Shown here in pieces: positions 42,407-54,627 of a DNA stretch of 64,000 nt. The first letter of the stretch is position 1, and each line of letters begins with the position of its first letter. Source of the DNA: Moraxella sp. TY6 (GTDB lineage: Bacteria; Pseudomonadota; Gammaproteobacteria; Pseudomonadales; Moraxellaceae); the NCBI RefSeq assembly GCF_048551375.1, contig NZ_JBLYZJ010000006.1, positions 80,051-144,050 on the forward strand, written 5' to 3'. A program made the position numbers and the translations under genes. Under the pieces are notes generated by a model. The model searched no databases, was not told where the DNA came from, and saw only the letters and a program-made list of their open reading frames with translations.

Positions 42407-45400
42407 ATGAGTGCAGGATTAATCAGACATCTAAAAGCCAAAACCGAACAAGATAGCAATACGGCTATTTTGCTTGCTCAATGGGAATTTGACCAAAAAC
42501 TGGTTGGCAAGGCTTTGGAAAATATTGCTAGCTATTATCCACACTTTAGCAGTCATAATGCTTCACATTCACACCAAATTCTTGTCAATATTGAGCGTTT
42601 ATTAGATAAAAATATAATTGAATTATCGGCTACAGATACTTGGCTGTTACTCGAATCTGCCTATTGGCATGATGTGGGTATGTTATTTAATAGCCAACAG
42701 GTTCAGGACATTATCAAAGATAGTAAGTTTAAAGAATATGTCGAAACCCTTGCCAATGATAATAGCCAAGATTTACACGAATTTGCGAAAAAATGGCATG
42801 ATACTGACTGGAAACAAGCCTTGGCAATGTATGACCATCCACAAAAAGGCGTGGAAAAATACCGCCAAATGGTGGCTGAATGGTATCGCCGTGACCATGC
42901 TAAAAACTCTCAACGTGTGGTCGCTGACCCTTTTGAAATTCTTGGTATTAACTCACCCCGCACCGAACTATTACCAAAACGCATTTATCGTTATTTAGGG
43001 CAAATTTGTCTTGCACATGGCACAAGTTTTGAGAGTGTCATGTCACAACTGCCCTATCGCCAAACAGGTATGGGAACAGAAAACTGCCATCCTCGATTTG
43101 TGGCGTGTATGCTACGCTTGGGCGATTTGTTTGATATTGATGATAACCGATTTTGCCCTGTTATGATGAAACAAACAACCATGCCAAAATTGAGTGAGGC
43201 TCATCATCATAAGCATTTGGCGATTCGTGAGTTTCAGCTTGATAACAAGACGGTCAGTATCACCGCAGAATGTGAAGATGAAGATGCGTATATCCAAACG
43301 CAGATGTGGTTTGGCTGGATTAAAGAAGAGATGCAAAATCAAATGTCACAATGGAAAAACATTGTGCCGAACCGTTCCTTTGGTCTGCTACCTACGATTC
43401 AAAAGCTTGATGTGGTGATGACAAGTTCTAAGATTTTGCTCAATAACAAGCCAATGAAGTTTGGGCTGGATGAGAAAAGTGCGATTGAGCTGTTGCAAGG
43501 TAGAAATCTGTACGATGATGAGACCAATATCTACCGTGAGCTGATTCAAAATGCGGTGGATGCGACCTATCTGCGAGTATGGATTGAGCATGGTATGCGT
43601 AAGCGTGAGATTACCGATGACTTCCATCCGTTTCATCCAAAGTTTCAAGAGATTTTGGAGAATTATCCGATTACCATTGATTTTGTAAAATTGGAAGATG
43701 AGCCGAATTCTGATTATAGTATTTGGCAGTTTAGTTTGACGGACAATGGGACTGGCATTAGCCTGAAAGATTTGGAGTATATGCAGAAGATTGCAGGGTC
43801 TAGTCGCAATGTTGAGAAAAAACGTTTAATGGCTGATATGCCTGTGTGGATGCGTCCGTCTGGTGCGTTTGGGATTGGGTTACATAGTGCGTTTTTGTTG
43901 CTAGATAAAGGCAGAGAGGAAGATAACAAGATTGTTCTTGAGACAAAGAGTATTGCGGATAATGCGTCTTATCGGATTGAGATGACTTCGCCAATTTCGG
44001 GGAATCAGGGGTACTGTTTTATTGAAAAATTAAGTGATGAAGAAAATTTAAAAAGGGATTATGGTACTAAGCTCAACATTAATATAAGGGTAGAAAGAAA
44101 AGGTAGAAGATATTTTTATCTATCTGATGAGTTTAAAGAAAACATATTAATAAATAAATACCAAAAAGAATTTGACACGTTAAAAACGCCAATTTTTGAT
44201 TTTTCTAAAATATTATTCATTACAAGAAAAATTCGTGAAAAAATCATTACAAATATCTCTGTACCAATAGAATTTAAGCATCTTGAAAGCATTAATAATA
44301 CAAATGGGAATGCTATCACGAATCCAATTAATAGCTTCACTCCCAATCATATACTTCGCATTTGGTATGGTAAAGAAAACTTATATGTATCTTTAATCAA
44401 TCTAAGCCAAGTTGACAGTCTTACATTTTTTGAGAGTAGCTTTAGATGTATGACTTATTTTAAAGGACAAGAAATAGACAGATTATCCGTCAATATTATT
44501 CCTTCGGACATGGATTTTTTCGGCTTTAATGCTAAAGAATCTCTTCAAATAGATAGAAATAAATGGAGCAAAAACTTCTTGGAAACTCTTGAAGAAAAAA
44601 ATTATTTCTTTGAATTGAATAAAAATATTATTATTGATAATTACTCTGATATTAAAGAGCATCTCTCAAATAGTAAAGTTATGAGTGCCTTACTTTACTA
44701 TTACAAGATAGAATACCTAGACAACAGTATTAAAGACTTATGGAAAGAGATGAAATTAACTACAAGTCATAATGTTAAATATAGTGCAAATCTTGATATT
44801 AGTTACAAAGGTTTAATAAGCTTAGACCAATTTACAATAGAAGAAGACACTACAGTAAATGGAAATTATATTAACAATATTAAAATCGAAGATTTACCGA
44901 ACAATACTATTGTAGTATCAAACTTGAACAATCATAACTATTTTTATGAAAATTTTGTAAATGAATGGTATAAATCAGGTGGAGATATTATTGAAACTAA
45001 AAGTGAAGAAATTAGAACCTTTAAGTTAAGAAAAATTAATCAAACTAATAATTTACTTTTTGAACATCTGAAAAATCAATTAAAGAGTAATGTTACAAGA
45101 ATAATATTAGATTCAGATGAGATAAGAGATTATAGTTTGAATTACTTGGAGGATATTATTTGTTTCAGTGAAGCTCATGAGAACTTTCTAGGAAATAATA
45201 CAAACCGTGAAAAGGTCTTCTTATCACCTTTTGCTTTCTTTAGAGATGATGAAAAAGCCATAATAGCTGTAGCAAATTTTGAATTTTTGTGTCAATCTGT
45301 GTTCGATGAGCTAAAGAAGAATGGAAAATATATCAGATTAGATTCAATCAAAGAAAAATATGAAAAATTCATTTCTCAAGCTGATGAATTAATGAAAAAT

Positions 45401-45535
45401 ATTCCAGAATGGGTTGAAGCAAGAGAGATGGGGAGAGACTTCATACCAAAAGATATTCGAGAGCTTGAAGATATGTTTAAACCATCAGATGAAGTTTTAA
45501 AGGCTTACGAATCTGAAAAAGAAAAAAGAAAATAA
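42407..45535 (+). CDS. 1042-aa HD-domain + GHKL (Hsp90/MORC-like) ATPase protein with AT-rich C-terminal extension; candidate defence or stress protein
   Basis: HD motif HSHQILVNIERLL..YWHDVGM (~42.56-42.68 kb); Bergerat-fold boxes RELIQNAVDA (43.53 kb), DNGTGIS (43.74 kb), GAFGIGLHSAF (43.86 kb); GC falls from about 42% to about 28% after ~43.95 kb. Confidence 0.8.
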   Translation: MSAGLIRHLKAKTEQDSNTAILLAQWEFDQKLVGKALENIASYYPHFSSHNASHSHQILVNIERLLDKNIIELSATDTWLLLESAYWHDVGMLFNSQQVQDIIKDSKFKEYVETLANDNSQDLHEFAKKWHDTDWKQALAMYDHPQKGVEKYRQMVAEWYRRDHAKNSQRVVADPFEILGINSPRTELLPKRIYRYLGQICLAHGTSFESVMSQLPYRQTGMGTENCHPRFVACMLRLGDLFDIDDNRFCPVMMKQTTMPKLSEAHHHKHLAIREFQLDNKTVSITAECEDEDAYIQTQMWFGWIKEEMQNQMSQWKNIVPNRSFGLLPTIQKLDVVMTSSKILLNNKPMKFGLDEKSAIELLQGRNLYDDETNIYRELIQNAVDATYLRVWIEHGMRKREITDDFHPFHPKFQEILENYPITIDFVKLEDEPNSDYSIWQFSLTDNGTGISLKDLEYMQKIAGSSRNVEKKRLMADMPVWMRPSGAFGIGLHSAFLLLDKGREEDNKIVLETKSIADNASYRIEMTSPISGNQGYCFIEKLSDEENLKRDYGTKLNINIRVERKGRRYFYLSDEFKENILINKYQKEFDTLKTPIFDFSKILFITRKIREKIITNISVPIEFKHLESINNTNGNAITNPINSFTPNHILRIWYGKENLYVSLINLSQVDSLTFFESSFRCMTYFKGQEIDRLSVNIIPSDMDFFGFNAKESLQIDRNKWSKNFLETLEEKNYFFELNKNIIIDNYSDIKEHLSNSKVMSALLYYYKIEYLDNSIKDLWKEMKLTTSHNVKYSANLDISYKGLISLDQFTIEEDTTVNGNYINNIKIEDLPNNTIVVSNLNNHNYFYENFVNEWYKSGGDIIETKSEEIRTFKLRKINQTNNLLFEHLKNQLKSNVTRIILDSDEIRDYSLNYLEDIICFSEAHENFLGNNTNREKVFLSPFAFFRDDEKAIIAVANFEFLCQSVFDELKKNGKYIRLDSIKEKYEKFISQADELMKNIPEWVEAREMGRDFIPKDIRELEDMFKPSDEVLKAYESEKEKRK

Positions 45536-47211: not shown

Positions 47212-48402
47212 ATGAAAACACAAATTCCCGCAATTTTGGCATTAACCGATGGCACAGTTTTTAAGGGCATTAGCATCGGTGCAAGCGGACACACCGTTGG
47301 CGAAGTGGTGTTTAACACCGCCATGACAGGCTATCAAGAAATCCTGACCGACCCTAGCTATGCCGAGCAAATCGTCACCCTCACCTACCCACACATCGGC
47401 AATACAGGCACGAATGCCGAAGACACCGAATCTGGGCGTATCAAAAAGGTATGGGCAAACGGCTTGATTATCCGTGATTTGACCATGGTAACTAGCAACT
47501 TCCGCTCAACCGAATCTTTGACCGATTATTTGTTCAATAACAACACGGTCGCCATTGCCGATATCGACACTCGCAAGCTCACTCGCCTACTCCGTACCAA
47601 AGGGGCAATGAACGGCTGTATCATGACCGCAGACGCTGACGGCAATCTTGATGAGGCGAAAGCGGTGGCACTTGCTCAAAGTTTTGCAGGCATTAAAGGC
47701 ATGGACTTGGCAAAAGTCTGCTGTGATAAAGACGGCTTTGAGTGGACGCAAGGCTCTTGGGAATTGGTTAGCCCTGAAGTGAGTAGCACTTGTGGACGTT
47801 TTAAAGAACTTGGCACGGATATCGAAAAACGCTTTAACATCGTGGCGTATGATTTTGGCATTAAAACCAATATCTTGCGTATGCTTGTGGATAGAGGCTG
47901 TCATGTCACCGTTGTCCCTGCCCAGACCCCAGTTGCGGATGTTTTAAAACACAATCCAGATGGTATTTTCTTGTCAAACGGTCCTGGCGACCCTGCACCT
48001 TGTACTTATGCGATTGAGGCGATTAAGCACGTCATCACCGAAACGGATATTCCGCTATTTGGGATTTGTTTGGGTCATCAGTTGCTGGCGTTGGCAAGTG
48101 GGGCGAATACGCTTAAGATGAAGTTCGGTCATCATGGGGCGAACCACCCTGTGCAAGATATTGAGAATGGTACGGTGATGATTACGTCACAGAATCATGG
48201 TTTTGCGGTGGATGAAGACAGCTTGCCAAGTAATGTAAAAGTAACGCATCGTTCGTTGTTTGATGGGTCGAATCAAGGCATTGAATTGACGAATAAGCCT
48301 GCGTTTAGTTTCCAAGGTCACCCAGAGGCAAGCCCCGGCCCGCATGACTGCTCGCCGTTGTTTGATAAATTCGCTGAGTTGATGGTGAAAGCGAAAGGTT
48401 AA
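47212..48402 (+). CDS. carA: carbamoyl-phosphate synthase small (glutaminase) subunit
   Basis: start at ATG 47212 ([19 protein letters not shown]..); GATase catalytic region ICLGHQLL. Confidence 0.95.
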
Positions 48403-48404
48403 TA

Positions 48405-48974
48405 ATGGCAATTAAATTAGACGGTTCTTGGTCGGTCGGTTATGCCTATGACAAACATATCGAACATAGCACATTTTTGGGCTATGATGACCAAGGTCGC
48501 CCTTTATTTGACACCACTCGCACCTATTATATGGGTGAGTTGATTTACCAACTCAAATATCAGCAAAAACTTGATAACATTGATAAAATCATCGATTTAT
48601 TACTCGCTCAATTTTCTAATTTTGAAAAATTTAACATGGTTGTGCCAGCACCGTTTTCCACCCCCCGATTGCACCAACCTGTTTATTTAATCGCCGAGCA
48701 GTTAGCCAAACGACTGAATATCAGTTATCAGCCGATATTGCACAAAATACAGGCAAAAATTCCACTCAAAAACTTAGCAACATTTGATGAAAAGATAGAA
48801 AATTTGTCACACAATATTGAGCTAGATAAACAAAGCAATGTTGCCAATCAAACTATTTTGCTACTAGATGATTTATTTGACAGTGGAGCAACGCTCGATT
48901 CTGCCACACAACTACTGATGCAAGCAGGGGCAAAAGAAGTAAATGTCTTGGTACTTACCAAAACTCGAGGATAA
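48405..48974 (+). CDS. phosphoribosyltransferase (PRTase)-domain protein, ShosT-like
   Basis: 189 aa; PRPP-binding loop ILLLDDLFDSGATL; ATG 2 nt after the carA stop. Confidence 0.6.
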   Translation: MAIKLDGSWSVGYAYDKHIEHSTFLGYDDQGRPLFDTTRTYYMGELIYQLKYQQKLDNIDKIIDLLLAQFSNFEKFNMVVPAPFSTPRLHQPVYLIAEQLAKRLNISYQPILHKIQAKIPLKNLATFDEKIENLSHNIELDKQSNVANQTILLLDDLFDSGATLDSATQLLMQAGAKEVNVLVLTKTRG

Positions 48975-48977
48975 ACC

Positions 48978-49541
48978 ATGCAACCGATATTTTTTTCAGG
49001 TTCTCGAAGTTTAGTCAGCTTACCAGCTATGGTACAGCAACGTATTTTTGACAATATTTTGCAAAAAAACTTCCCTATTGTCATTGGGGATGCTGATGGT
49101 GCAGATAGCACATTACAAGCGTTTTTTGCGACCCAATACTATGATTTGGTGAAAGTTTTTTGTGCAGGTGGCAAATGCCGTAATAATATAGGTAATTGGC
49201 AAATTCAGACCATTGCAAGCTCTGCCAAAGGTCGAGCCTTTTATACCGCTAAAGATGTAGCAATGGCAAATGTCGCTAATTATGGGTTTGTGCTTTGGGA
49301 TGGTCAAAGCATTGGTTCGCTTAATAATATTGCTGAGTTATTAAAGCAAAACAAACCATCATTGGTCTATTTTGAGCCTAATCAACAGTTTATAAAAGTT
49401 GTATCAGAACAGGACTTGAATGATTTATTACAAATCGCTGATAAAGGTTTGGCAAATACCATTATCCAAAAGGGTTCAACATATTTAAAGCAACTATCAA
49501 AGAATGGTAATTTTTATCAACAGAATAGTTTGTGGAATTAA
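48978..49541 (+). CDS. DprA/Smf-like SLOG Rossmann-domain protein, ShosA-like
   Basis: 187 aa; FFSGSRSL..PIVIGDADGADS..CAGG pattern typical of DprA/LOG-type SLOG domains; RBS GAGGA. Confidence 0.55.
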   Translation: MQPIFFSGSRSLVSLPAMVQQRIFDNILQKNFPIVIGDADGADSTLQAFFATQYYDLVKVFCAGGKCRNNIGNWQIQTIASSAKGRAFYTAKDVAMANVANYGFVLWDGQSIGSLNNIAELLKQNKPSLVYFEPNQQFIKVVSEQDLNDLLQIADKGLANTIIQKGSTYLKQLSKNGNFYQQNSLWN

Positions 49542-49784
49542 AGGAAAATACTGTTTCCACCTTCGTAAATGTAGTTGCCAAAACGTATTTTTATAGTTAA
49601 CACTGAATTATAGTGAACAAGGTCGTTCGTGGTGAGCTTGTCGAACCATAACGACCGCCACCCTTCGACAGGCTCAGGGCGAGCGGTGTTCATTATGATT
49701 TCGGATTCACTATAACAAAGTGGCTAATTGAATTTGAGTATGATGAATTTTATTTGGATTAATAATTGGGTAAATGAATAAGCA

Positions 49785-50900
49785 ATGACCGAAATTAAAA
49801 TCAAAGACTTGCGTGGTGTCGGTGACGTTGAGCTACAACTTGACGATAGCAAACGTGTCTTTGTTTTTTTTGGGTCAAATGGTGTTGGGAAAACGAAAAC
49901 GTTAGAAAGCTTGTTCCTTTTTCTTTTTTATAAAACTACTGGTTTTAAATTTGAATTAGAAAAAGATAATATCTTTAATTTTTTTAAAAACATAACATAT
50001 TCTAATAAAAAACTGAAATTCGTTGATTATTTTTTCAGAGATAGTAATGCTCTTTTTTTTGATTATCACTATTTAAAAGATTTAGTACCCTATTTTGGCT
50101 ATCAAGCTATTGCCTATTTAGGTGCAAATGAGAGAAGTAAAATCTTAAAAAGTTCTGATAGTCATAGTTTAAACAATGGATTATCGGATAGAAAAAATAA
50201 TTATATATTATCTATACACAACGCAATTAATGACCAAACATTAACTAATTTTGCGATGAATCAAAATATTCATCTTTGGTTTACCGAGCGAGCCAAATCC
50301 GTCAATCCCTACCAAAAAGAAGAAGACAATCGCAAAGTTGATATTGATACGGTTTTAAATGCATTAAACATTTTAGACAGTCGCATTGAAAAAACGCTAA
50401 AAATTGATGGTGACGGCAATGTGTTTTTAACCATTGAAGGACAAGAACGAGAGTTAAGCGAATTAAGCTCTGGTTTTATCTCGGTGGTAAAAATCATTCA
50501 ATCCATAATTTCAGCTTATTCCGCCTTTACCAATGCCACCGATTTATTAAACGTCAAAGGCGTGGTATTGATTGACGAAATTGAAAGCCATTTACACATC
50601 GAATGGCAAACCAAAATCGTACCGACTTTAAAAAATTTGTTTCCCAATACCACATTCTATATCGCTACCCATTCGCCATTAGTATTATCACAGTTAGACG
50701 AAGGCGAAGCTTATTTATTAAAGCGTGATGATGACAATGTTGTAAGAAGTTCGGTAATCAACTCGCCTAACACTCGATTACTTGAAAATGTTTTGCAAGA
50801 TGCTTTTGATGTCGATTTGAACCAATTAAAACGTGACAATATGGAACATATCGACCAAAGTAAAGCTAAACAAAAATTACTAGCACTATTAAACAGATAA
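49785..50900 (+). CDS. ABC-type AAA_21 ATPase (AT-rich)
   Basis: 371 aa; Walker A GSNGVGKT, VVLIDEIESHLH Walker B/D-loop, ATHSP H-loop; about 30% GC. Confidence 0.7.
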   Translation: MTEIKIKDLRGVGDVELQLDDSKRVFVFFGSNGVGKTKTLESLFLFLFYKTTGFKFELEKDNIFNFFKNITYSNKKLKFVDYFFRDSNALFFDYHYLKDLVPYFGYQAIAYLGANERSKILKSSDSHSLNNGLSDRKNNYILSIHNAINDQTLTNFAMNQNIHLWFTERAKSVNPYQKEEDNRKVDIDTVLNALNILDSRIEKTLKIDGDGNVFLTIEGQERELSELSSGFISVVKIIQSIISAYSAFTNATDLLNVKGVVLIDEIESHLHIEWQTKIVPTLKNLFPNTTFYIATHSPLVLSQLDEGEAYLLKRDDDNVVRSSVINSPNTRLLENVLQDAFDVDLNQLKRDNMEHIDQSKAKQKLLALLNR

Positions 50901-50911
50901 CAGGTGAAGCG

Positions 50912-51364
50912 ATGACTCAAAAATCTGTTTTAGTGGATGCTAATATTTTAATTGCCATGATTGATGGTGATAATACAAACCCAAATCACGTTGAAGCAAA
51001 ACAAAAATTTAATGATTTGATAGAGCAAAATGTTGCCATTGCCATTACGCCTTTGATTCGTTATGAAGTGTTGCGTGGTATAAAAAGCATTTCGATTGAT
51101 GAAGCCCAAGCGATTTTAGACGATTTTGTTGAGTTTAACATCACGGATAAAGAAGCCAATCCATCCGCTAAAATTTTCCATTTCAGCCGAAGTGATGATT
51201 TTTTGGCAAAAAATACAGGGATTAAATTAGACAAACAAAACTTTGACGTATTTCATTACGTTGTTGCCAAGATTCGTCATTTAGAACTGGTCAATGTGAA
51301 TCAAAAAGACTTTAACAAAATTGAAAATGTGATTGATTTAATGCCAAATTCCCCATTTGAGTAA
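50912..51364 (+). CDS. PIN-domain (VapC-like) nuclease
   Basis: 150 aa; [11 protein letters not shown]-terminal acidic motif, later conserved E, and [10 protein letters not shown]-terminal PIN motif. Confidence 0.6.
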
Positions 51365-51384
51365 TTGAGAGTGAGAGAGTAACC

Positions 51385-54300
51385 ATGCCAAAACGTACAG
51401 ATATCAAATCCATCTTAATCATCGGTGCAGGTCCAATCGTCATCGGACAAGCCTGTGAATTCGACTACTCAGGTGCTCAAGCCTGTAAAGCCTTGCGTGA
51501 AGAAGGCTACCGAGTCATTCTCGTCAACTCAAACCCAGCCACCATCATGACCGACCCTGTCATGGCGGATGCCACCTACATCGAGCCGATTACATGGCAA
51601 ACCGTTGAGCGTATCATCGAAAAAGAACGCCCAGATGCCATCTTGCCAACCATGGGCGGACAGACCGCACTTAACTGTGCGTTAGACCTTGATAAACATG
51701 GCGTATTGGCAAAATACGGCTGTGAGCTAATCGGTGCGACCAAAGATGCCATCGAAAAAGCCGAAGACCGTGACCTATTCGACAAAGCCATGAAAAAAAT
51801 CGGCTTAGAATGTCCTCGTGCCGAAGTCGCAGGCAATATGCAAGAAGCCTTTGAAATCCAAGCCAAAGTCGGCTTCCCTTGTATCATTCGTCCATCATTC
51901 ACCATGGGCGGTTCGGGCGGTGGTATCGCTTACAACCGTGACGAATTTGTCGAGATTTGCGAACGTGGTTTTGACCTGTCGCCGACCAAACAGCTATTGA
52001 TTGACGAAAGCTTAATCGGCTGGAAAGAATACGAAATGGAAGTCGTGCGTGACAAAAACGACAACTGTATCATCATCTGTTCAATTGAAAACTTCGACCC
52101 AATGGGCGTACACACAGGCGACTCGATTACCGTTGCCCCTGCTCAGACTTTGACCGACAAAGAATACCAAATCATGCGAAATGCCTCGATTGCGGTATTG
52201 CGTGAGATTGGCGTGGAAACAGGCGGTTCAAACGTCCAGTTTGGCATCGACCCAAAAACAGGGCGTATGGTTGTCATCGAGATGAACCCTCGTGTTAGCC
52301 GTTCTTCTGCGTTAGCGTCTAAGGCGACTGGCTTTCCGATTGCCAAAATCGCTGCCAAACTCGCCGTTGGTTACACGCTTGATGAACTCAAAAACGACAT
52401 CACAGGCGGTAAAACCCCAGCCAGTTTTGAGCCATCAATTGACTATGTGGTGACCAAAGTACCTCGTTTTAACTTTGAAAAATTCCCACAAGCCGATAAC
52501 ACGCTATCAACGCAAATGAAGTCAGTCGGTGAAGTCATGGCGATTGGGCGTAATTTCCAAGAGTCGATGCAAAAAGCCTTGCGTGGGCTTGAGATTGGCG
52601 TGAATGGTTTTGATGAGTATTTGGATTTAAACCAAGATACTGACAGCATTCGTAGTACACTGAAAGTTAAACTAAAAACCCCGACCCCAGAGCGTATTTT
52701 CTACGTTGCCGATGCGTTCCGCTTTGGCATGAGTGTGGATGAGGTGTTTAACTTTACCAACATTGACCCTTGGTTCTTGGTACAAATCGAAGACATCGTT
52801 AAAACCGAAAAACAAGTCAAAGAAACGGGCTTTGGTGGTTTGACAGCCGATGTGTTACGTGCGTTTAAACGTAAAGGTTTATCAGATTTACGCCTTGCTA
52901 CCTTACTTGGTATTTCACAAAAACAACTGCGTAAAAAGCGTTGGGATTTGGGCGTTTATCCTGTTTATAAACGTGTCGATACTTGTGCCGCCGAGTTTGA
53001 AACTTCAACCGCTTATATGTACTCAAGCTATGACGATGAGTGCGAAGCACAGCCGACCAATAACAAAAAAATCATGGTCATCGGTGGTGGCCCAAACCGT
53101 ATCGGACAAGGCATTGAGTTTGATTATTGCTGTGTGCATGCGGCATTGGCAATGCGTGAAGACGGTTATGAAACCATCATGGTGAACTGTAACCCAGAAA
53201 CCGTTTCGACCGATTATGATACCTCTGACCGTCTATATTTTGAGCCGATTACCCTTGAAGATGTACTAGAAATCGTACGTATCGAAAAACCTGAAGGCGT
53301 GATTGTGCAGTATGGTGGTCAAACGCCATTGAAACTTGCTCGTGCCTTAGAAGCCGCAGGTGTGCATATCATCGGTACTAGCCCAGATGCCATCGACCGT
53401 GCCGAAGACCGTGAACGCTTCCAACACATGATTAACCAGTTAGGCTTTACTCAGCCACCCAATGCGTTGGCGACCAGTACCGAAGACGGTATTGTCAAAG
53501 CCGAAAAAGTCGGCTATCCGCTGGTGGTGCGTCCTTCGTATGTGTTGGGCGGTCGTGCCATGGAAATCGTGTATAACGAAAGCGAACTCCGCCGTTACTT
53601 GCGTGAGGCGGTACAAGCCTCGAATGAAGCCCCTGTGCTACTTGACCGCTTCCTTGATGATGCGATTGAGGTCGATGTGGATTGTATCTCGGACGGCACA
53701 AACGTGGTGATTGGCGGTATCATGCAACATATCGAACAGGCAGGCGTGCATTCTGGCGACTCGGCTTGCTCGATTCCGCCTTATTCGCTCGGTCAAGAGA
53801 TTTGTGATGTCATGCGTGAGCAAACGGTGGCAATGGCAAAAGAGCTTGGCGTGGTCGGCTTGATGAACGTGCAATATGCGGTCAAAGACGGCGTGGTGTA
53901 TATCCTTGAGGTCAATCCTCGTGCCTCTCGTACCGTGCCTTTTGTGTCAAAATGTATCGGCACATCGCTTGCCCAAGTCGCCGCTCGCTGTATGGCAGGC
54001 AAAACCTTGGCAGAGCAAGGCTTTACCCAAGAGGTGATTCCAAGTTTCTTTGCGGTCAAAGAGGCAGTATTCCCATTTGCCAAGTTTCCGGGGGTTGACC
54101 CAATCCTTAGCCCAGAGATGAAATCAACGGGTGAAGTCATGGGCGTGGGTCAGACCTTTGGCGAAGCGTATTATAAAGCTATCATCGGTAGTAATGACCG
54201 CTTACCTGGTTTGCCAGTTGATGGTGAAGTGAAAAAAGTCTTCCTATCGGTGCGTGATAGTGATAAAGCCAACTTAATTCCGATTGCCAAACAATTCATC

Positions 54301-54627
54301 GAATATGGCTTTGGATTGGTTGCCACAGGCGGTACGCATCAAGTATTAAGCGATGCTGGATTGGCATGTGAAAAAGTCAACAAAGTCAATGAAGGTCGCC
54401 CACATATTGTTGATGCCATCAAAAATGGTGAAATTGCCATTGTGGTAAACACTACTGAAGGCAAACAAGCCCACGAAGATTCGTTCTCAATTCGCCGTAG
54501 TGCCTTGCAACACAAAGTGTTTAATGTGACAACGCTCAATGCGGCGGCGGCGGTGGCGGAAGCCTATAAAGTACAATTGCCGTTTGAAGTATATAAATTG
54601 CAAGAATTGCACGCTCAAGCGAAATAA
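51385..54627 (+). CDS. carB: carbamoyl-phosphate synthase large subunit
   Basis: 1080 aa; duplicated ATP-grasp halves, unmistakable CarB sequence. Confidence 0.97.

What the first reader, a model, noticed from the sequence alone, without database searches (positions are those of the whole stretch)
48405..49541. PRTase + DprA/SLOG-like gene pair resembling the ShosTA toxin-antitoxin/defence system
A 189-aa protein with a canonical PRPP-binding loop (ILLLDDLFDSGATL) is followed 3 bp later by a 187-aa Rossmann protein with DprA/LOG-type SLOG motifs (GSRSL.., IVIGDADGADS). ShosT (PRTase) and ShosA (DprA-like) form a described toxin-antitoxin pair with anti-phage activity. Both proteins here are much shorter than typical ComFC/DprA, so this may be a minimal variant.
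Basis: partly seen in the sequence, partly recalled or inferred. Interest (0 to 1): 0.6.

Follow-up and report, generated by a model that had tools for sequence, protein, structure and literature searches.

The report
Compact PRTase–SLOG toxin–antitoxin-like gene pair
Two small overlapping-signal genes wedged between carA and carB encode a stand-alone phosphoribosyltransferase and a small DprA-like "SLOG" protein. Together they form a stripped-down, so far unannotated relative of the PsyrTA/ShosTA toxin–antitoxin phage-defence systems, and the same pair is found in thousands of bacterial lineages and on plasmids.

Summary
A 189-aa PRTase (48405..48974) is followed 3 bp later by a 187-aa protein (48978..49541).

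- **PRTase.** It is the stand-alone form of the C-terminal module of PsyrT (PADLOC E 2.6e-22; ShosT 2.6e-12). It keeps the catalytic DD and is not a salvage enzyme.
- **Conservation.** The pair is a tightly coupled two-gene module with no third partner. It occurs in many phyla, on 101 plasmids and in defence islands; the SLOG family has about 2,550 clusters at 50% identity.
- **Roles.** Intact PRTases never lack a SLOG-fold partner (0–1 of 68 loci). In four loci that partner is a canonical PsyrA/ShosA-type protein. SLOG genes often outlive a decayed or lost PRTase (24 of 78). This is the asymmetry expected of a toxin and its antitoxin.
- **Membership.** It fails the tests for ShosTA (no PPase-like or SAM domains) and PsyrTA (no helicase).

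Verdict: a compact new variant of the PsyrTA/ShosTA class. Toxicity and defence are inferred, not shown. In Moraxella, Cricetibacter and three Neisseria species it sits in the carA–carB spacer.

The parts
48405..48974 (+). Compact stand-alone PRTase gene (189 aa), the predicted toxin or effector. It has no cysteines, so no ComF zinc finger. The family-specific N-terminal ~50 aa carries conserved G7, W9, G12, H18, S22, G26, R39 and L50-K51-Y52. Invariant residues are R88, K122, D155 and D156.
   Evidence: ORF. Pfam PF00156 E 2.2e-8. PADLOC PsyrT 2.6e-22 (model positions 539-685 of 689) and ShosT 2.6e-12. All 60 family members hit PsyrT and 58 hit ShosT. Residue statistics. AF2 pLDDT 76.9 with a type I PRTase fold: PurF, ComF 7p0h, APRT, ShosT 8zvd.
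48855..48896 (+). PRPP-binding loop ILLLDDLFDSGATL (residues 151-164). D155/D156 are equivalent to ShosT D331/D332.
   Evidence: Sequence read. D155 and D156 are invariant in 60 of 60 members, and S/T160-G161-x-T/S163 is conserved. ShosT D331A/D332A abolishes toxicity (PMC11961720; PMC12961424).
48967..48971 (+). GAGGA Shine-Dalgarno sequence for the SLOG gene, inside the last two PRTase codons. It suggests translational coupling.
   Evidence: Sequence read. Across the family the junctions are mostly -4, -1 or +1 to +6 bp.
48978..49541 (+). Mini-SLOG gene (187 aa, pI 8.8), the predicted antitoxin or sensor. It has a Rossmannoid SLOG core (residues 1-141) plus a four-helix C-terminal extension (144-184).
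48999..49010 (+). GSRS motif after strand 1 (residues 8-11). It aligns with the DprA/PsyrA 'GSR' motif.
   Evidence: Alignment to S. pneumoniae DprA 3uqz and to PsyrA/ShosA-type partners. R10 is Arg in 47 of 78 (A2) but only 14 of 119 (A4) members.
49083..49106 (+). IGDADGAD motif after strand 2 (residues 36-43). This is the SLOG 'GxD' signature, equivalent to DprA SG.A.G.D.
   Evidence: G37, D38, A39, G41 and D43 are invariant in 78 of 78 and 119 of 119 members. Aligned to SGLAKGID of DprA and SGYANGVD of PsyrA-type partners.
49296..49328 (+). WDGQSIGSLNN motif (residues 107-117). It is positionally equivalent to the LOG PGGxGTxxE motif and the DprA EAGE.GGS phosphate-binding loop.
   Evidence: W107, S111 and G113 are invariant and N117 nearly so. 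Register from hhalign.
48403..51384 (.). Low-GC islet (27-38% GC) between carA and carB. It holds this pair plus a second, independent two-gene module.
   Evidence: Composition profile: carA and carB 45-50% GC. Gene content.
47212..48402 (+). carA (context). Its stop codon lies 2 bp before the PRTase ATG, and no terminator is predicted between them.
   Evidence: Pfam CPSase_sm_chain and GATase on the called gene. Promoter and terminator scan.
51385..54627 (+). carB (context), the downstream boundary of the islet.
   Evidence: ORF. Pfam CPSase_L domains.

Best explanation
The two genes form a self-contained, translationally coupled, horizontally mobile two-gene module of the PsyrTA/ShosTA class. 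It is best read as a toxin-antitoxin, abortive-infection or addiction module.

Inferred mechanism, by analogy with ShosT and PsyrT:
1. The 189-aa PRTase binds PRPP through its intact DD/PRPP loop and transfers phosphoribose to a still unknown acceptor.
2. This disturbs nucleotide pools or DNA integrity and arrests or kills the cell when unchecked.
3. The basic 187-aa SLOG protein keeps this in check, most likely without stoichiometric sequestration (type IV-like). It may do so by binding ssDNA or a nucleotide-like ligand.
4. Loss of the SLOG protein, or a phage cue, releases the toxin.

What is shown: the gene pair, its conservation and coupling, the folds, homology of the PRTase to the PsyrT and ShosT modules, interchangeability of the mini-SLOG with canonical PsyrA/ShosA-type partners, asymmetric decay, and mobile, defence-island and plasmid contexts.

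What is inferred: toxicity, neutralisation, the trigger and anti-phage activity.
For: 1. Strict reciprocal pairing with stop/start coupling. SLOG-first: 65-66 of 80 loci. PRTase-first: 73 of 77.
2. No third conserved gene. 135 flanking genes give 157 Pfam families, none found more than twice.
3. PRTase homology. All 60 members hit PADLOC PsyrT and 58 hit ShosT. The catalytic DD, R88 and K122 are invariant, and the equivalent ShosT DD is essential for toxicity.
4. SLOG fold is high confidence, with ShosA as the best Foldseek PDB hit and DprA next. The family is basic, median pI about 9.
5. Direct evolutionary bridge. In L113, L115 and L175 the same compact PRTase is followed by a 311-317-aa protein hitting PsyrA (7e-51) and ShosA (1.5e-42). 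In L158 the PRTase module, with the family's N-terminal motif, is the C-terminus of a canonical PsyrT next to PsyrA.
6. Decay asymmetry as expected for toxin and antitoxin. An intact SLOG lacks an intact PRTase in 24 of 78 loci. An intact PRTase lacks any SLOG-fold partner in 0-1 of 68 (Fisher p about 1e-7).
7. Antitoxin-like fusions of the SLOG domain to XRE-type HTH domains.
8. Context. Neighbours include Hachiman, MADS, PARIS, pAgo, SIR2 and R-M genes, plus TraG/TraD and IS elements. The pair is on 101 plasmids, 55 of them conjugative, including an E. coli IncFII plasmid where it sits between R-M systems. It is on 25 IMG/VR contigs. In the window it lies in a low-GC islet.
Against: - No experiment exists for this family.
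- The window's own SLOG protein hits no ShosA, PsyrA or DprA model at E <= 1, and only 8 of 78 relatives reach ShosA.
- Profile-profile similarity to PsyrA/ShosA-type proteins is weak (E 0.003-0.04, probability 1-11%).
- The DprA/ShosA ssDNA-binding 'GSR' arginine is Met or Ile in many members, so the ShosA neutralisation mechanism may not transfer.
- The SAM domain, which stabilises ShosA, and the ShosT PPase-like domain are absent.
- The PRTase model is only moderately confident (pLDDT 77), and its fold matches housekeeping PRTases as well as ShosT.
- One representative (P0286) is a PRTase-SLOG fusion, which is odd for a classical TA pair.
- No hit in 50,697 isolated phage genomes.
- In the window the pair has no evident promoter of its own and sits inside the carAB operon.
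- The asymmetry test compares two different collections and the 80 best-scoring loci of each.
Confidence: 0.6

Rival explanations
1. Writer-eraser or metabolite-based pair. The PRTase makes a phosphoribosylated product (a nucleotide analogue, or a modified base in DNA or RNA). The mini-SLOG is an enzyme or high-affinity binder, such as a LOG-type phosphoribohydrolase, that removes or sequesters this product. That would resemble DarT/DarG rather than a DprA-like ssDNA/RecA-linked antitoxin.
For: - The chemistry is the formal reverse of a PRTase product.
- The family keeps a constellation of invariant polar residues: D38, D43, Q47, R68, N69, N70, W74, K92, D93, W107, S111, N117 and K126. The DprA ssDNA-binding Arg10 is not conserved.
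- One PRTase-SLOG fusion exists.
- ShosT and ShosA do not bind each other, and the ShosT acceptor is unknown.
Against: - N117 sits where LOG has its catalytic Glu of PGGxGTxxE, so the LOG catalytic motif is not reproduced (inference).
- Sequence affinity is to DprA and PsyrA rather than to LOG or YpsA.
- The protein is basic like DNA binders.
- The mini-SLOG is interchangeable with canonical DprA-type antitoxins, whose antitoxin activity depends on ssDNA binding.
Confidence: 0.17
2. Accessory DNA-processing or competence pair. On this reading the genes are miniature paralogs of ComFC (PRT domain) and DprA that handle or modulate incoming ssDNA during natural transformation in these naturally competent hosts.
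For: - NCBI names the PRTase a 'ComF family protein', and TIGR00201 comF is the best NCBIfam hit (E 2.4e-13).
- ComFC binds ssDNA and interacts with DprA (PMC9005727).
- The carA-carB copies are in Moraxella, Neisseria and Pasteurellaceae, which are naturally transformable (own knowledge).
Against: - The comF score is 50 bits against a cut-off of 233.6.
- There are no cysteines, so no 4-Cys zinc finger, which ComFC needs for DNA import.
- The family is spread over many phyla, on conjugative plasmids and in defence islands with variable context.
- The decay asymmetry fits a toxin-antitoxin pair, not two cooperating factors.
Confidence: 0.08
3. Metabolic accessory of carbamoyl-phosphate and pyrimidine metabolism. 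On this reading a PRPP-using enzyme and a nucleotide-binding or hydrolysing partner are co-expressed with carAB.
For: - The pair lies between carA and carB in five species of three families.
- It starts 2 bp after the carA stop in the window and ends 6 bp before carB in Neisseria.
- No separate promoter or terminator is evident.
Against: - 77 of 80 genome loci and all plasmid copies are unrelated to carAB.
- The islet has foreign GC content and carries different co-cargo in each species.
- Scores against all salvage and biosynthetic PRTase equivalogs are far below cut-off.
- The pair is more diverged (48-52% identity) than carA and carB (62-70%) between Moraxella and Neisseria.
Confidence: 0.04

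Closest known systems
PsyrTA (RqlHI) toxin-antitoxin / anti-phage system
   Same: - A PRTase toxin module followed by a SLOG-fold (DprA-like) antitoxin gene on the same strand.
- The window's PRTase is homologous over its whole PRT part, plus the preceding family motif, to the C-terminal module of PsyrT (PADLOC E 2.6e-22; all 60 members).
- A canonical PsyrTA locus (L158) carries that same module.
   Different: - No RecQ-like SF2 helicase: 189 aa here against about 690 to 1,150 aa.
- The partner is 187 aa against about 330-400 aa, lacks the N-terminal helical region, and does not hit the PsyrA model (2 of 78 members).
- Similarity to PsyrA is only remote (hhalign E 0.04).
ShosTA toxin-antitoxin / anti-phage system (E. 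coli; PDB 8zvd, 8zva)
   Same: - A PRTase toxin with an essential DD PRPP loop, plus a DprA-like SLOG antitoxin.
- 58 of 60 PRTases hit the ShosT model.
   Different: - ShosT is 424 aa, with an N-terminal PPase-like hydrolase domain and extended PPi and flexible loops.
- ShosA is 328 aa, with a SAM domain, a 9-stranded DprA Rossmann fold, helix alpha14 and a C-terminal degron. None of these extras is present here.
- The window's SLOG does not hit either ShosA model.
- The ShosA ssDNA-binding R139 equivalent is not conserved in the family.
Compact PRTase + full-length PsyrA/ShosA-type antitoxin (loci L113, L115, L175; unnamed)
   Same: The same compact 193-194-aa PRTase family, in the same gene order with tight spacing.
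   Different: The partner is a 311-317-aa SAM-like + DprA protein that hits PsyrA (about 1e-51) and ShosA (about 1e-42), not the 186-aa mini-SLOG.
YpsA-family SLOG proteins, including the 'YpsA + PRTase gene pair' branch noted by Brzozowski et al. 2019 / Burroughs et al. 2015
   Same: - The literature reports a YpsA-family branch strongly coupled to a PRTase gene (PMC6459960). This may be the same or a sister family.
   Different: - Sequence evidence does not place the family in YpsA proper. PF06908 is hit by 3 of 78 members (best E 0.022), against DprA PF02481 in 36 of 78.
- hhalign against YpsA gives E 0.47 over 29 columns, against 0.003 over 127 columns for a PsyrA-type protein.
- I could not read Burroughs 2015 to check identity with that branch.
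ComFC + DprA of natural transformation
   Same: - A PRT-domain protein and a SLOG protein that act on the same pathway and interact.
- ComF (7p0h) is among the best structural matches of the PRTase.
- The conserved Arg after strand 2 (R88) is shared with ComFC-like PRTases (PMC5512222).
   Different: - No zinc finger.
- The comF model score is far below its cut-off.
- The genes are adjacent, mobile, and found on plasmids and in defence islands.

Membership tests
ShosTA | ShosT is a two-domain toxin: an N-terminal PPase-like Rossmann hydrolase (residues 1-164) plus a C-terminal PRTase (165-424). | tested here: not met
   The window protein is 189 aa with a single PRT domain, and the family median is 193 aa. 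ShosT architecture is from PMC11961720 and PMC12961424.
ShosTA | A PRTase with an intact PRPP loop, including the DD required for toxicity. | tested here: met
   ILLLDDLFDSGATL is present. D155 and D156 are invariant in 60 of 60 members.
ShosTA | The toxin matches the ShosT profile (PADLOC PDLC03962). | tested here: inconclusive
   E 2.6e-12, but over only positions 90-211 of the 237-position model. It is weaker than the PsyrT match.
ShosTA | ShosA is a SAM domain plus a DprA Rossmann domain of about 328 aa that matches the ShosA profile. | tested here: not met
   187 aa, with no SAM domain in the model. No hit to PDLC03961 or PDLC02997 at E <= 1, and only 8 of 78 relatives hit. The fold is nonetheless closest to 8zva by Foldseek.
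ShosTA | The toxin kills, the antitoxin rescues, and the pair protects against phage (for example T7). | not testable with these tools
   This needs expression and plaque assays.
PsyrTA (RqlHI) | PsyrT is a RecQ-like SF2 helicase fused to a C-terminal PRTase. | tested here: not met
   There is no helicase. The match covers only positions 539-685 of the 689-position PsyrT model. Compare L158, which has the full architecture.
PsyrTA (RqlHI) | The PRTase module is homologous to that of PsyrT. | tested here: met
   E 2.6e-22, and 60 of 60 family members hit. The N-terminal motif is shared with the L158 PsyrT.
PsyrTA (RqlHI) | The PsyrA DprA-like antitoxin matches the PsyrA profile. | tested here: not met
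   No hit for the window protein, and 2 of 78 relatives hit. hhalign against a true PsyrA gives E 0.038.
SLOG superfamily | A Rossmannoid SLOG fold with a Gly-rich loop after strand 1, a GxD signature after strand 2, and a G-[ST] phosphate loop after strand 5. | tested here: met
   [not shown]
DprA/Smf family (Pfam PF02481) | A match to DNA_processg_A at significance, and conserved ssDNA-binding arginines. | tested here: inconclusive
   The window protein has no hit. 36 of 78 relatives hit at E <= 1, best 2.4e-7. The GSR arginine is present here but variable across the family. The other two arginines could not be mapped without coordinates.
YpsA family (Pfam PF06908) | A match to the YpsA profile and the YpsA-specific conserved residues. 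| tested here: inconclusive
   [not shown]
ComF/ComFC (TIGR00201) | An N-terminal 4-Cys zinc finger plus a PRT domain, with a score above the family cut-off. | tested here: not met
   The protein has no cysteine. The score is 50.4 bits against a cut-off of 233.55.
Purine/pyrimidine salvage and biosynthetic PRTases (apt, hpt, upp, pyrE, prs, purF) | A score above the equivalog cut-offs over the full length. | tested here: not met
   The best score is apt at 32 bits against a cut-off of 170, and the matches are limited to the PRPP-loop region.
Toxin-antitoxin module (generic) | Two small co-directional coupled genes, mobile with variable context, in which the antitoxin can persist without the toxin but not the reverse. 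| tested here: met
   Junctions. Variable flanks. Plasmid carriage. Decay asymmetry of 24 of 78 against 0-1 of 68. Toxicity itself was not testable.

The most novel reading that the evidence does not exclude
The mini-SLOG may not be a DprA-style ssDNA/RecA-linked antitoxin at all. It may instead be an 'eraser' or product-sequestering partner, such as a phosphoribohydrolase or ligand sink, for the phosphoribosylated product of the PRTase. That would make this a minimal writer-eraser immunity module analogous to DarTG. Because both proteins are single-domain, the pair could be the tool that finally reveals the unknown acceptor substrate of the defence PRTases (ShosT, PsyrT and the retron PRTases). 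A further untested twist is specific to Moraxella, Neisseria and Cricetibacter: placement inside the carAB operon may tie expression of a PRPP-consuming toxin to pyrimidine and arginine supply.
Probability: 0.17. Interest if true: 0.8.

Novelty: new variant of a known kind. Interest (0 to 1): 0.5.

Why it matters
- **Unannotated family.** The SLOG side has about 2,550 clusters at 50% identity, essentially all labelled 'hypothetical protein'. The PRTase is mislabelled 'ComF family' or 'amidophosphoribosyltransferase'. The PADLOC v2 ShosA and PsyrA models miss about 90% of the SLOG partners, so defence and TA censuses undercount this class.
- **Clinical and agricultural reach.** The pair is on conjugative plasmids of Klebsiella, Enterobacter, E. 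coli and rhizobia, and in the chromosomes of N. gonorrhoeae and N. meningitidis.
- **Experimental value.** It is the smallest known version of the PRTase/SLOG toxin-antitoxin theme: two single-domain proteins of about 190 aa. The acceptor substrate of ShosT-type PRTases, and how a non-binding DprA-like antitoxin neutralises them, are both still open. This pair is a tractable system for those questions.
- **Evolution.** Loci where the same PRTase pairs with a canonical PsyrA/ShosA-type protein, or is fused to the PsyrT helicase, give a ready-made evolutionary series.

Tried and rejected
- **Direct HMM assignment of the 187-aa protein.** Pfam, PADLOC and NCBIfam gave nothing at E <= 1, and PHROGs gave only a weak hit to phrog_289. 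PDB sequence searches with the single protein and with three profiles gave only noise or a marginal DprA hit at E 1.8. I moved to family-wide scans and structure.
- **Salvage-enzyme reading of the PRTase.** Rejected on NCBIfam scores far below cut-offs.
- **Four-gene system (PRTase, SLOG, ATPase, PIN).** Rejected, because no ATPase or PIN homolog occurs in any of the 80 related loci.
- **A conserved third partner.** Rejected.
- **A simple truncation of ShosA or PsyrA.** Rejected. The lengths are tightly distributed, and profile similarity to the full-length antitoxins is only remote.
- **Phage-borne origin.** No hit in 50,697 isolated phage genomes. The IMG/VR hits are probably prophage-adjacent.
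- **RNA element or RNA antitoxin in the islet.** No Rfam hit at E <= 1.
- **GC-rich REP-like segment at 49600-49700.** It has no second copy in the window.
- **Tool limits.** The 60-sequence PRTase alignment was too diverse for a collection scan and was replaced by A7.
- **Papers.** Burroughs et al. 2015 could not be read. The supplement of Brzozowski 2019 held no accession list. Nothing on the Neisseria carA-carB spacer genes was found in the held library.
Full report
**Observation.** One is a 189-aa protein at 48405..48974 and the other a 187-aa protein at 48978..49541, separated by 3 bp. The first ATG lies 2 bp after the carA stop codon. A GAGGA Shine-Dalgarno sequence for the second gene sits inside the last two codons of the first. 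The quoted motifs are all present: ILLLDDLFDSGATL, GSRS and IGDADGAD. The exact proteins are on record from Moraxella sp. GCA_048551455.1, labelled 'ComF family protein' and 'hypothetical protein'.

**The PRTase.**
- Pfam gives PF00156 at E 2.2e-8.
- Among defence models, the best match is the C-terminal PRTase part of PsyrT (E 2.6e-22, model positions 539-685 of 689). ShosT follows at 2.6e-12.
- NCBIfam's comF subfamily scores 50 bits against a cut-off of 233.6. All salvage and biosynthetic equivalogs score 17-32 bits against cut-offs of 113-536. It is therefore neither a bona fide ComF nor a salvage enzyme.
- The protein has no cysteine, so it lacks the ComFC zinc finger.
- In a 60-member family alignment, R88, K122, D155 and D156 are invariant and the S/T-G-x-T/S phosphate loop is kept. 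In ShosT the equivalent D331/D332 are essential for toxicity.
- The AF2 model is shallow (6 sequences, pLDDT 77). It has a generic type I PRTase fold that matches PurF, ComF 7p0h, APRT, HPRT and ShosT 8zvd about equally.

**The 187-aa partner.**
- On its own it matches nothing in Pfam, PADLOC or NCBIfam.
- Its relatives do give weak hits. Of 78 family members, 36 reach DprA PF02481 (best E 2.4e-7), 15 reach YAcAr and 3 reach YpsA. Only 8 reach PADLOC ShosA and 2 reach PsyrA.
- A deep alignment of 119 sequences gave a high-confidence AF2 model (pLDDT 93.6, pTM 0.89).
- By Foldseek, the best PDB match is ShosA (8zva, E 4e-4, TM 0.52). H. pylori and R. palustris DprA follow, then the ThsA, TRPM and PpnN SLOG domains.
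- At equal power, the family profile aligns over the whole core to PsyrA/ShosA-type proteins (E 0.003 over 127 columns, E 0.04 over 114 columns). It aligns to YpsA over a single motif only (E 0.47, 29 columns).
- SLOG superfamily membership is therefore firm. Within it, the family is a separate compact clade. It is nearer DprA and PsyrA by sequence, and YpsA-like in size.
- The family is basic (median pI about 9). It has an invariant constellation: G37, D38, A39, G41, D43, Q47, R68, N69, N70, W74, K92, D93, W107, S111, G113, N117 and K126.
- The DprA/ShosA 'GSR' arginine is present in the window's copy but is Met or Ile in many relatives.

**Conservation of the pair.**
- A scan of one genome per species found at least 161 SLOG relatives in many phyla.
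- In 65-66 of the 80 loci kept, a 190-200-aa PRTase homolog lies directly upstream on the same strand, with junctions mostly of -4 to +6 bp.
- Lengths are tightly distributed, with medians of 193 and 186 aa, so the compact form is the norm.
- Starting instead from the PRTase in metagenomes (at least 521 relatives), 73 of 77 informative loci have the mini-SLOG directly downstream.
- 24 of 25 IMG/VR contigs carry the pair.
- The 135 immediately flanking genes fall into 157 Pfam families, none seen more than twice. There is no third partner.
- No homolog of the window's neighbouring ATPase or PIN gene occurs in any related locus. Those two genes are a separate module.
- Family size: at least 1,647 clusters at 90% identity. 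In the 50%-identity library there are 2,554 clusters at E <= 1e-3 and 1,561 at E <= 1e-10.

**Links to the known systems.** The four PRTase-first loci without a mini-SLOG are the most informative.
- In L113, L115 and L175 the same compact PRTase is followed by a 311-317-aa SAM-like + DprA protein. That protein hits PsyrA (about 1e-51) and ShosA (about 1e-42).
- In L158 the PRTase module, including the family's N-terminal motif, is the C-terminus of a 1,154-aa RecQ-like protein (PsyrT, 1.3e-153). A PsyrA (3.5e-102) follows it. This is a textbook PsyrTA locus.
- The mini-SLOG is therefore functionally interchangeable with canonical antitoxins, and the compact PRTase is the free-standing version of the PsyrT toxin module.
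- Published work shows ShosT is a 424-aa PPase-like + PRTase toxin whose PRPP binding is needed for killing. ShosA is a 328-aa SAM + DprA antitoxin that binds ssDNA and RecA and does not bind ShosT.
- PsyrTA shares the DprA-like antitoxin and PRTase toxin logic.

**Evidence for toxin and antitoxin roles.**
- Partner integrity is asymmetric. Among 78 informative SLOG-first loci, the PRTase is intact in 54, fragmented in 10 and absent in 14.
- Among 68 informative PRTase-first loci, the mini-SLOG is intact in 63 and borderline in 1. In the other 4 it is replaced by a canonical PsyrA/ShosA-type protein, so no intact PRTase is orphaned (Fisher p between 7e-8 and 9e-7).
- Solo SLOG genes sit in defence-like contexts. 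In L016 one lies inside a type I R-M operon, and in L045 one follows an AAA ATPase pair.
- A subset of SLOG proteins carries a C-terminal XRE-type HTH domain, which is typical of autoregulating antitoxins.
- Caveats: the two sets come from different collections, only the 80 best-scoring loci of each were used, and nothing here measures toxicity.

**Context.**
- Neighbours include Hachiman HamB, MADS, PARIS AriA, pAgo, SIR2, type I and IIG R-M, and SoFic, together with TraG/TraD and IS91/IS66.
- The pair is on 101 plasmids, 55 of them conjugative, in Klebsiella, Enterobacter, E. coli, rhizobia, Listeria and cyanobacteria.
- On E. coli IncFII plasmid NZ_CP021538.1 it is annotated as 'amidophosphoribosyltransferase' plus 'hypothetical protein' and lies between R-M genes and recombinases.
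- It is absent from 50,697 isolated phage genomes.
- In the window, the pair and a PtuA-like ATPase + PIN module form a 3-kb islet of 27-38% GC between carA and carB, which have 45-50% GC.
- The closest relatives of the pair also lie in the carA-carB spacer, each with different co-cargo. These are Cricetibacter osteomyelitidis, Neisseria polysaccharea, N. meningitidis and N. gonorrhoeae.
- Between Moraxella and N. gonorrhoeae the pair is more diverged (48-52% identity) than carA and carB (62-70%).
- I read this as a recombination-accessible hotspot shared by naturally transformable mucosal bacteria (host competence is from my own knowledge), not as a metabolic link. The other 77 genome loci and all plasmid copies are unrelated to carAB.

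**Comparison with what is known, and novelty.**
- The pair works like PsyrTA and ShosTA but fails membership of both. It has no helicase, no PPase-like domain and no SAM domain, and its antitoxin is not recognised by their models.
- Comparative-genomics papers mention a YpsA-family branch coupled to a PRTase gene (PMC6459960). That branch may be this family or a sister family. I could not read the founding paper, and sequence tests do not place the family in YpsA proper.
- I found no experimental work on it.
- I therefore rate it a new variant of a known kind.

**Confidence.**
- That the pair is a real conserved operon with these folds: very likely.
- That it is a PRTase-toxin/SLOG-antitoxin module of the PsyrTA/ShosTA class: about 0.6.
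- Anti-phage activity and the neutralisation mechanism: open.
- Most interesting alternative (about 0.17): the mini-SLOG acts on or sequesters the PRTase product instead of acting through ssDNA and RecA.

Noticed in passing
window 49785-51364 (+): A second two-gene module shares the carA-carB islet. It is a 371-aa AAA_15/AAA_21 ATPase (PADLOC PtuA models E 1e-35; NCBIfam PtuA 100 bits against a cut-off of 500), followed 11 bp later by a 150-aa PIN/VapC-like protein. Septu pairs PtuA with an HNH protein (PtuB), so an ATPase + PIN pairing may be a distinct variant. No homolog of either gene occurs in the 80 related loci.
   Followed up: partly
window 42407-45535 (+): A 1,042-aa protein has an N-terminal HD-CE domain (PF24391, E 4e-54) and a weak GHKL/HSP90-like ATPase match. 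It lies in a second low-GC stretch (25-42% GC) upstream of a ubiH-like FAD monooxygenase gene. No PADLOC model matches. It looks like another horizontally acquired conflict-type gene.
   Followed up: partly
L001 7425-8546; L002 7435-8549; L187 4435-5459; L190 4435-5549: The carA-carB spacer is a shared insertion site for this pair in Cricetibacter, N. polysaccharea, N. meningitidis (SLOG C-terminally truncated to 152 aa) and N. gonorrhoeae (both genes intact, ending 6 bp before carB). The co-cargo differs in each: a PhzF-like gene and a membrane protein, a DUF559/Vsr-like gene, or about 2 kb of repeat-like spacer. From memory, a large variable carA-carB intergenic region in Neisseria was reported in the 1990s (Lawson et al. 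1995). I could not check this in the held library.
   Followed up: partly
protein P0286 (404 aa): One 50%-identity representative is a single polypeptide with the PRTase (residues 2-201) fused to the mini-SLOG (209-387). It could be a genuine fusion, or an indel at an overlapping stop/start junction. If genuine, it argues against a simple labile-antitoxin mechanism.
   Followed up: partly
proteins P0052, P0059, P0060, P0089, P0123 and others; L059, L071, L076; plasmid hits H1-H5, H8: A recurrent variant of the mini-SLOG, about 285-310 aa long, carries a C-terminal XRE-type HTH domain (PF13744/PF01381). Public records annotate it only as 'XRE family transcriptional regulator'.
   Followed up: partly
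L016 7950-8504: A solo mini-SLOG gene with no PRTase sits inside what looks like a type I restriction-modification operon. It lies between a 501-aa gene and a 507-aa gene, downstream of a 929-aa HsdR-like gene.
   Followed up: no
window 49542-49784, especially 49600-49700: The 243-bp spacer between the two modules contains a GC-rich segment. Its reverse-strand ORF (…ARPEPVEGWRSLWFDKLTTN…) resembles the spurious ORFs typical of REP/MITE-like repeats. It has no second copy in the window and no Rfam match.
   Followed up: partly
PLSDB records NZ_CP119142.1 and NZ_CP119140.1: Two N. gonorrhoeae records of 2.17 Mb are filed as plasmids. They carry carA and carB and are evidently chromosomes. Their gene tables list only 17 features, so the PRTase and SLOG genes appear unannotated there.
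   Followed up: no
L189 4405-5552 (E. coli IncFII plasmid NZ_CP021538.1): RefSeq names the compact PRTase 'amidophosphoribosyltransferase', which is the PurF name, although it has no glutaminase domain. This looks like a systematic misannotation of the family.
   Followed up: no
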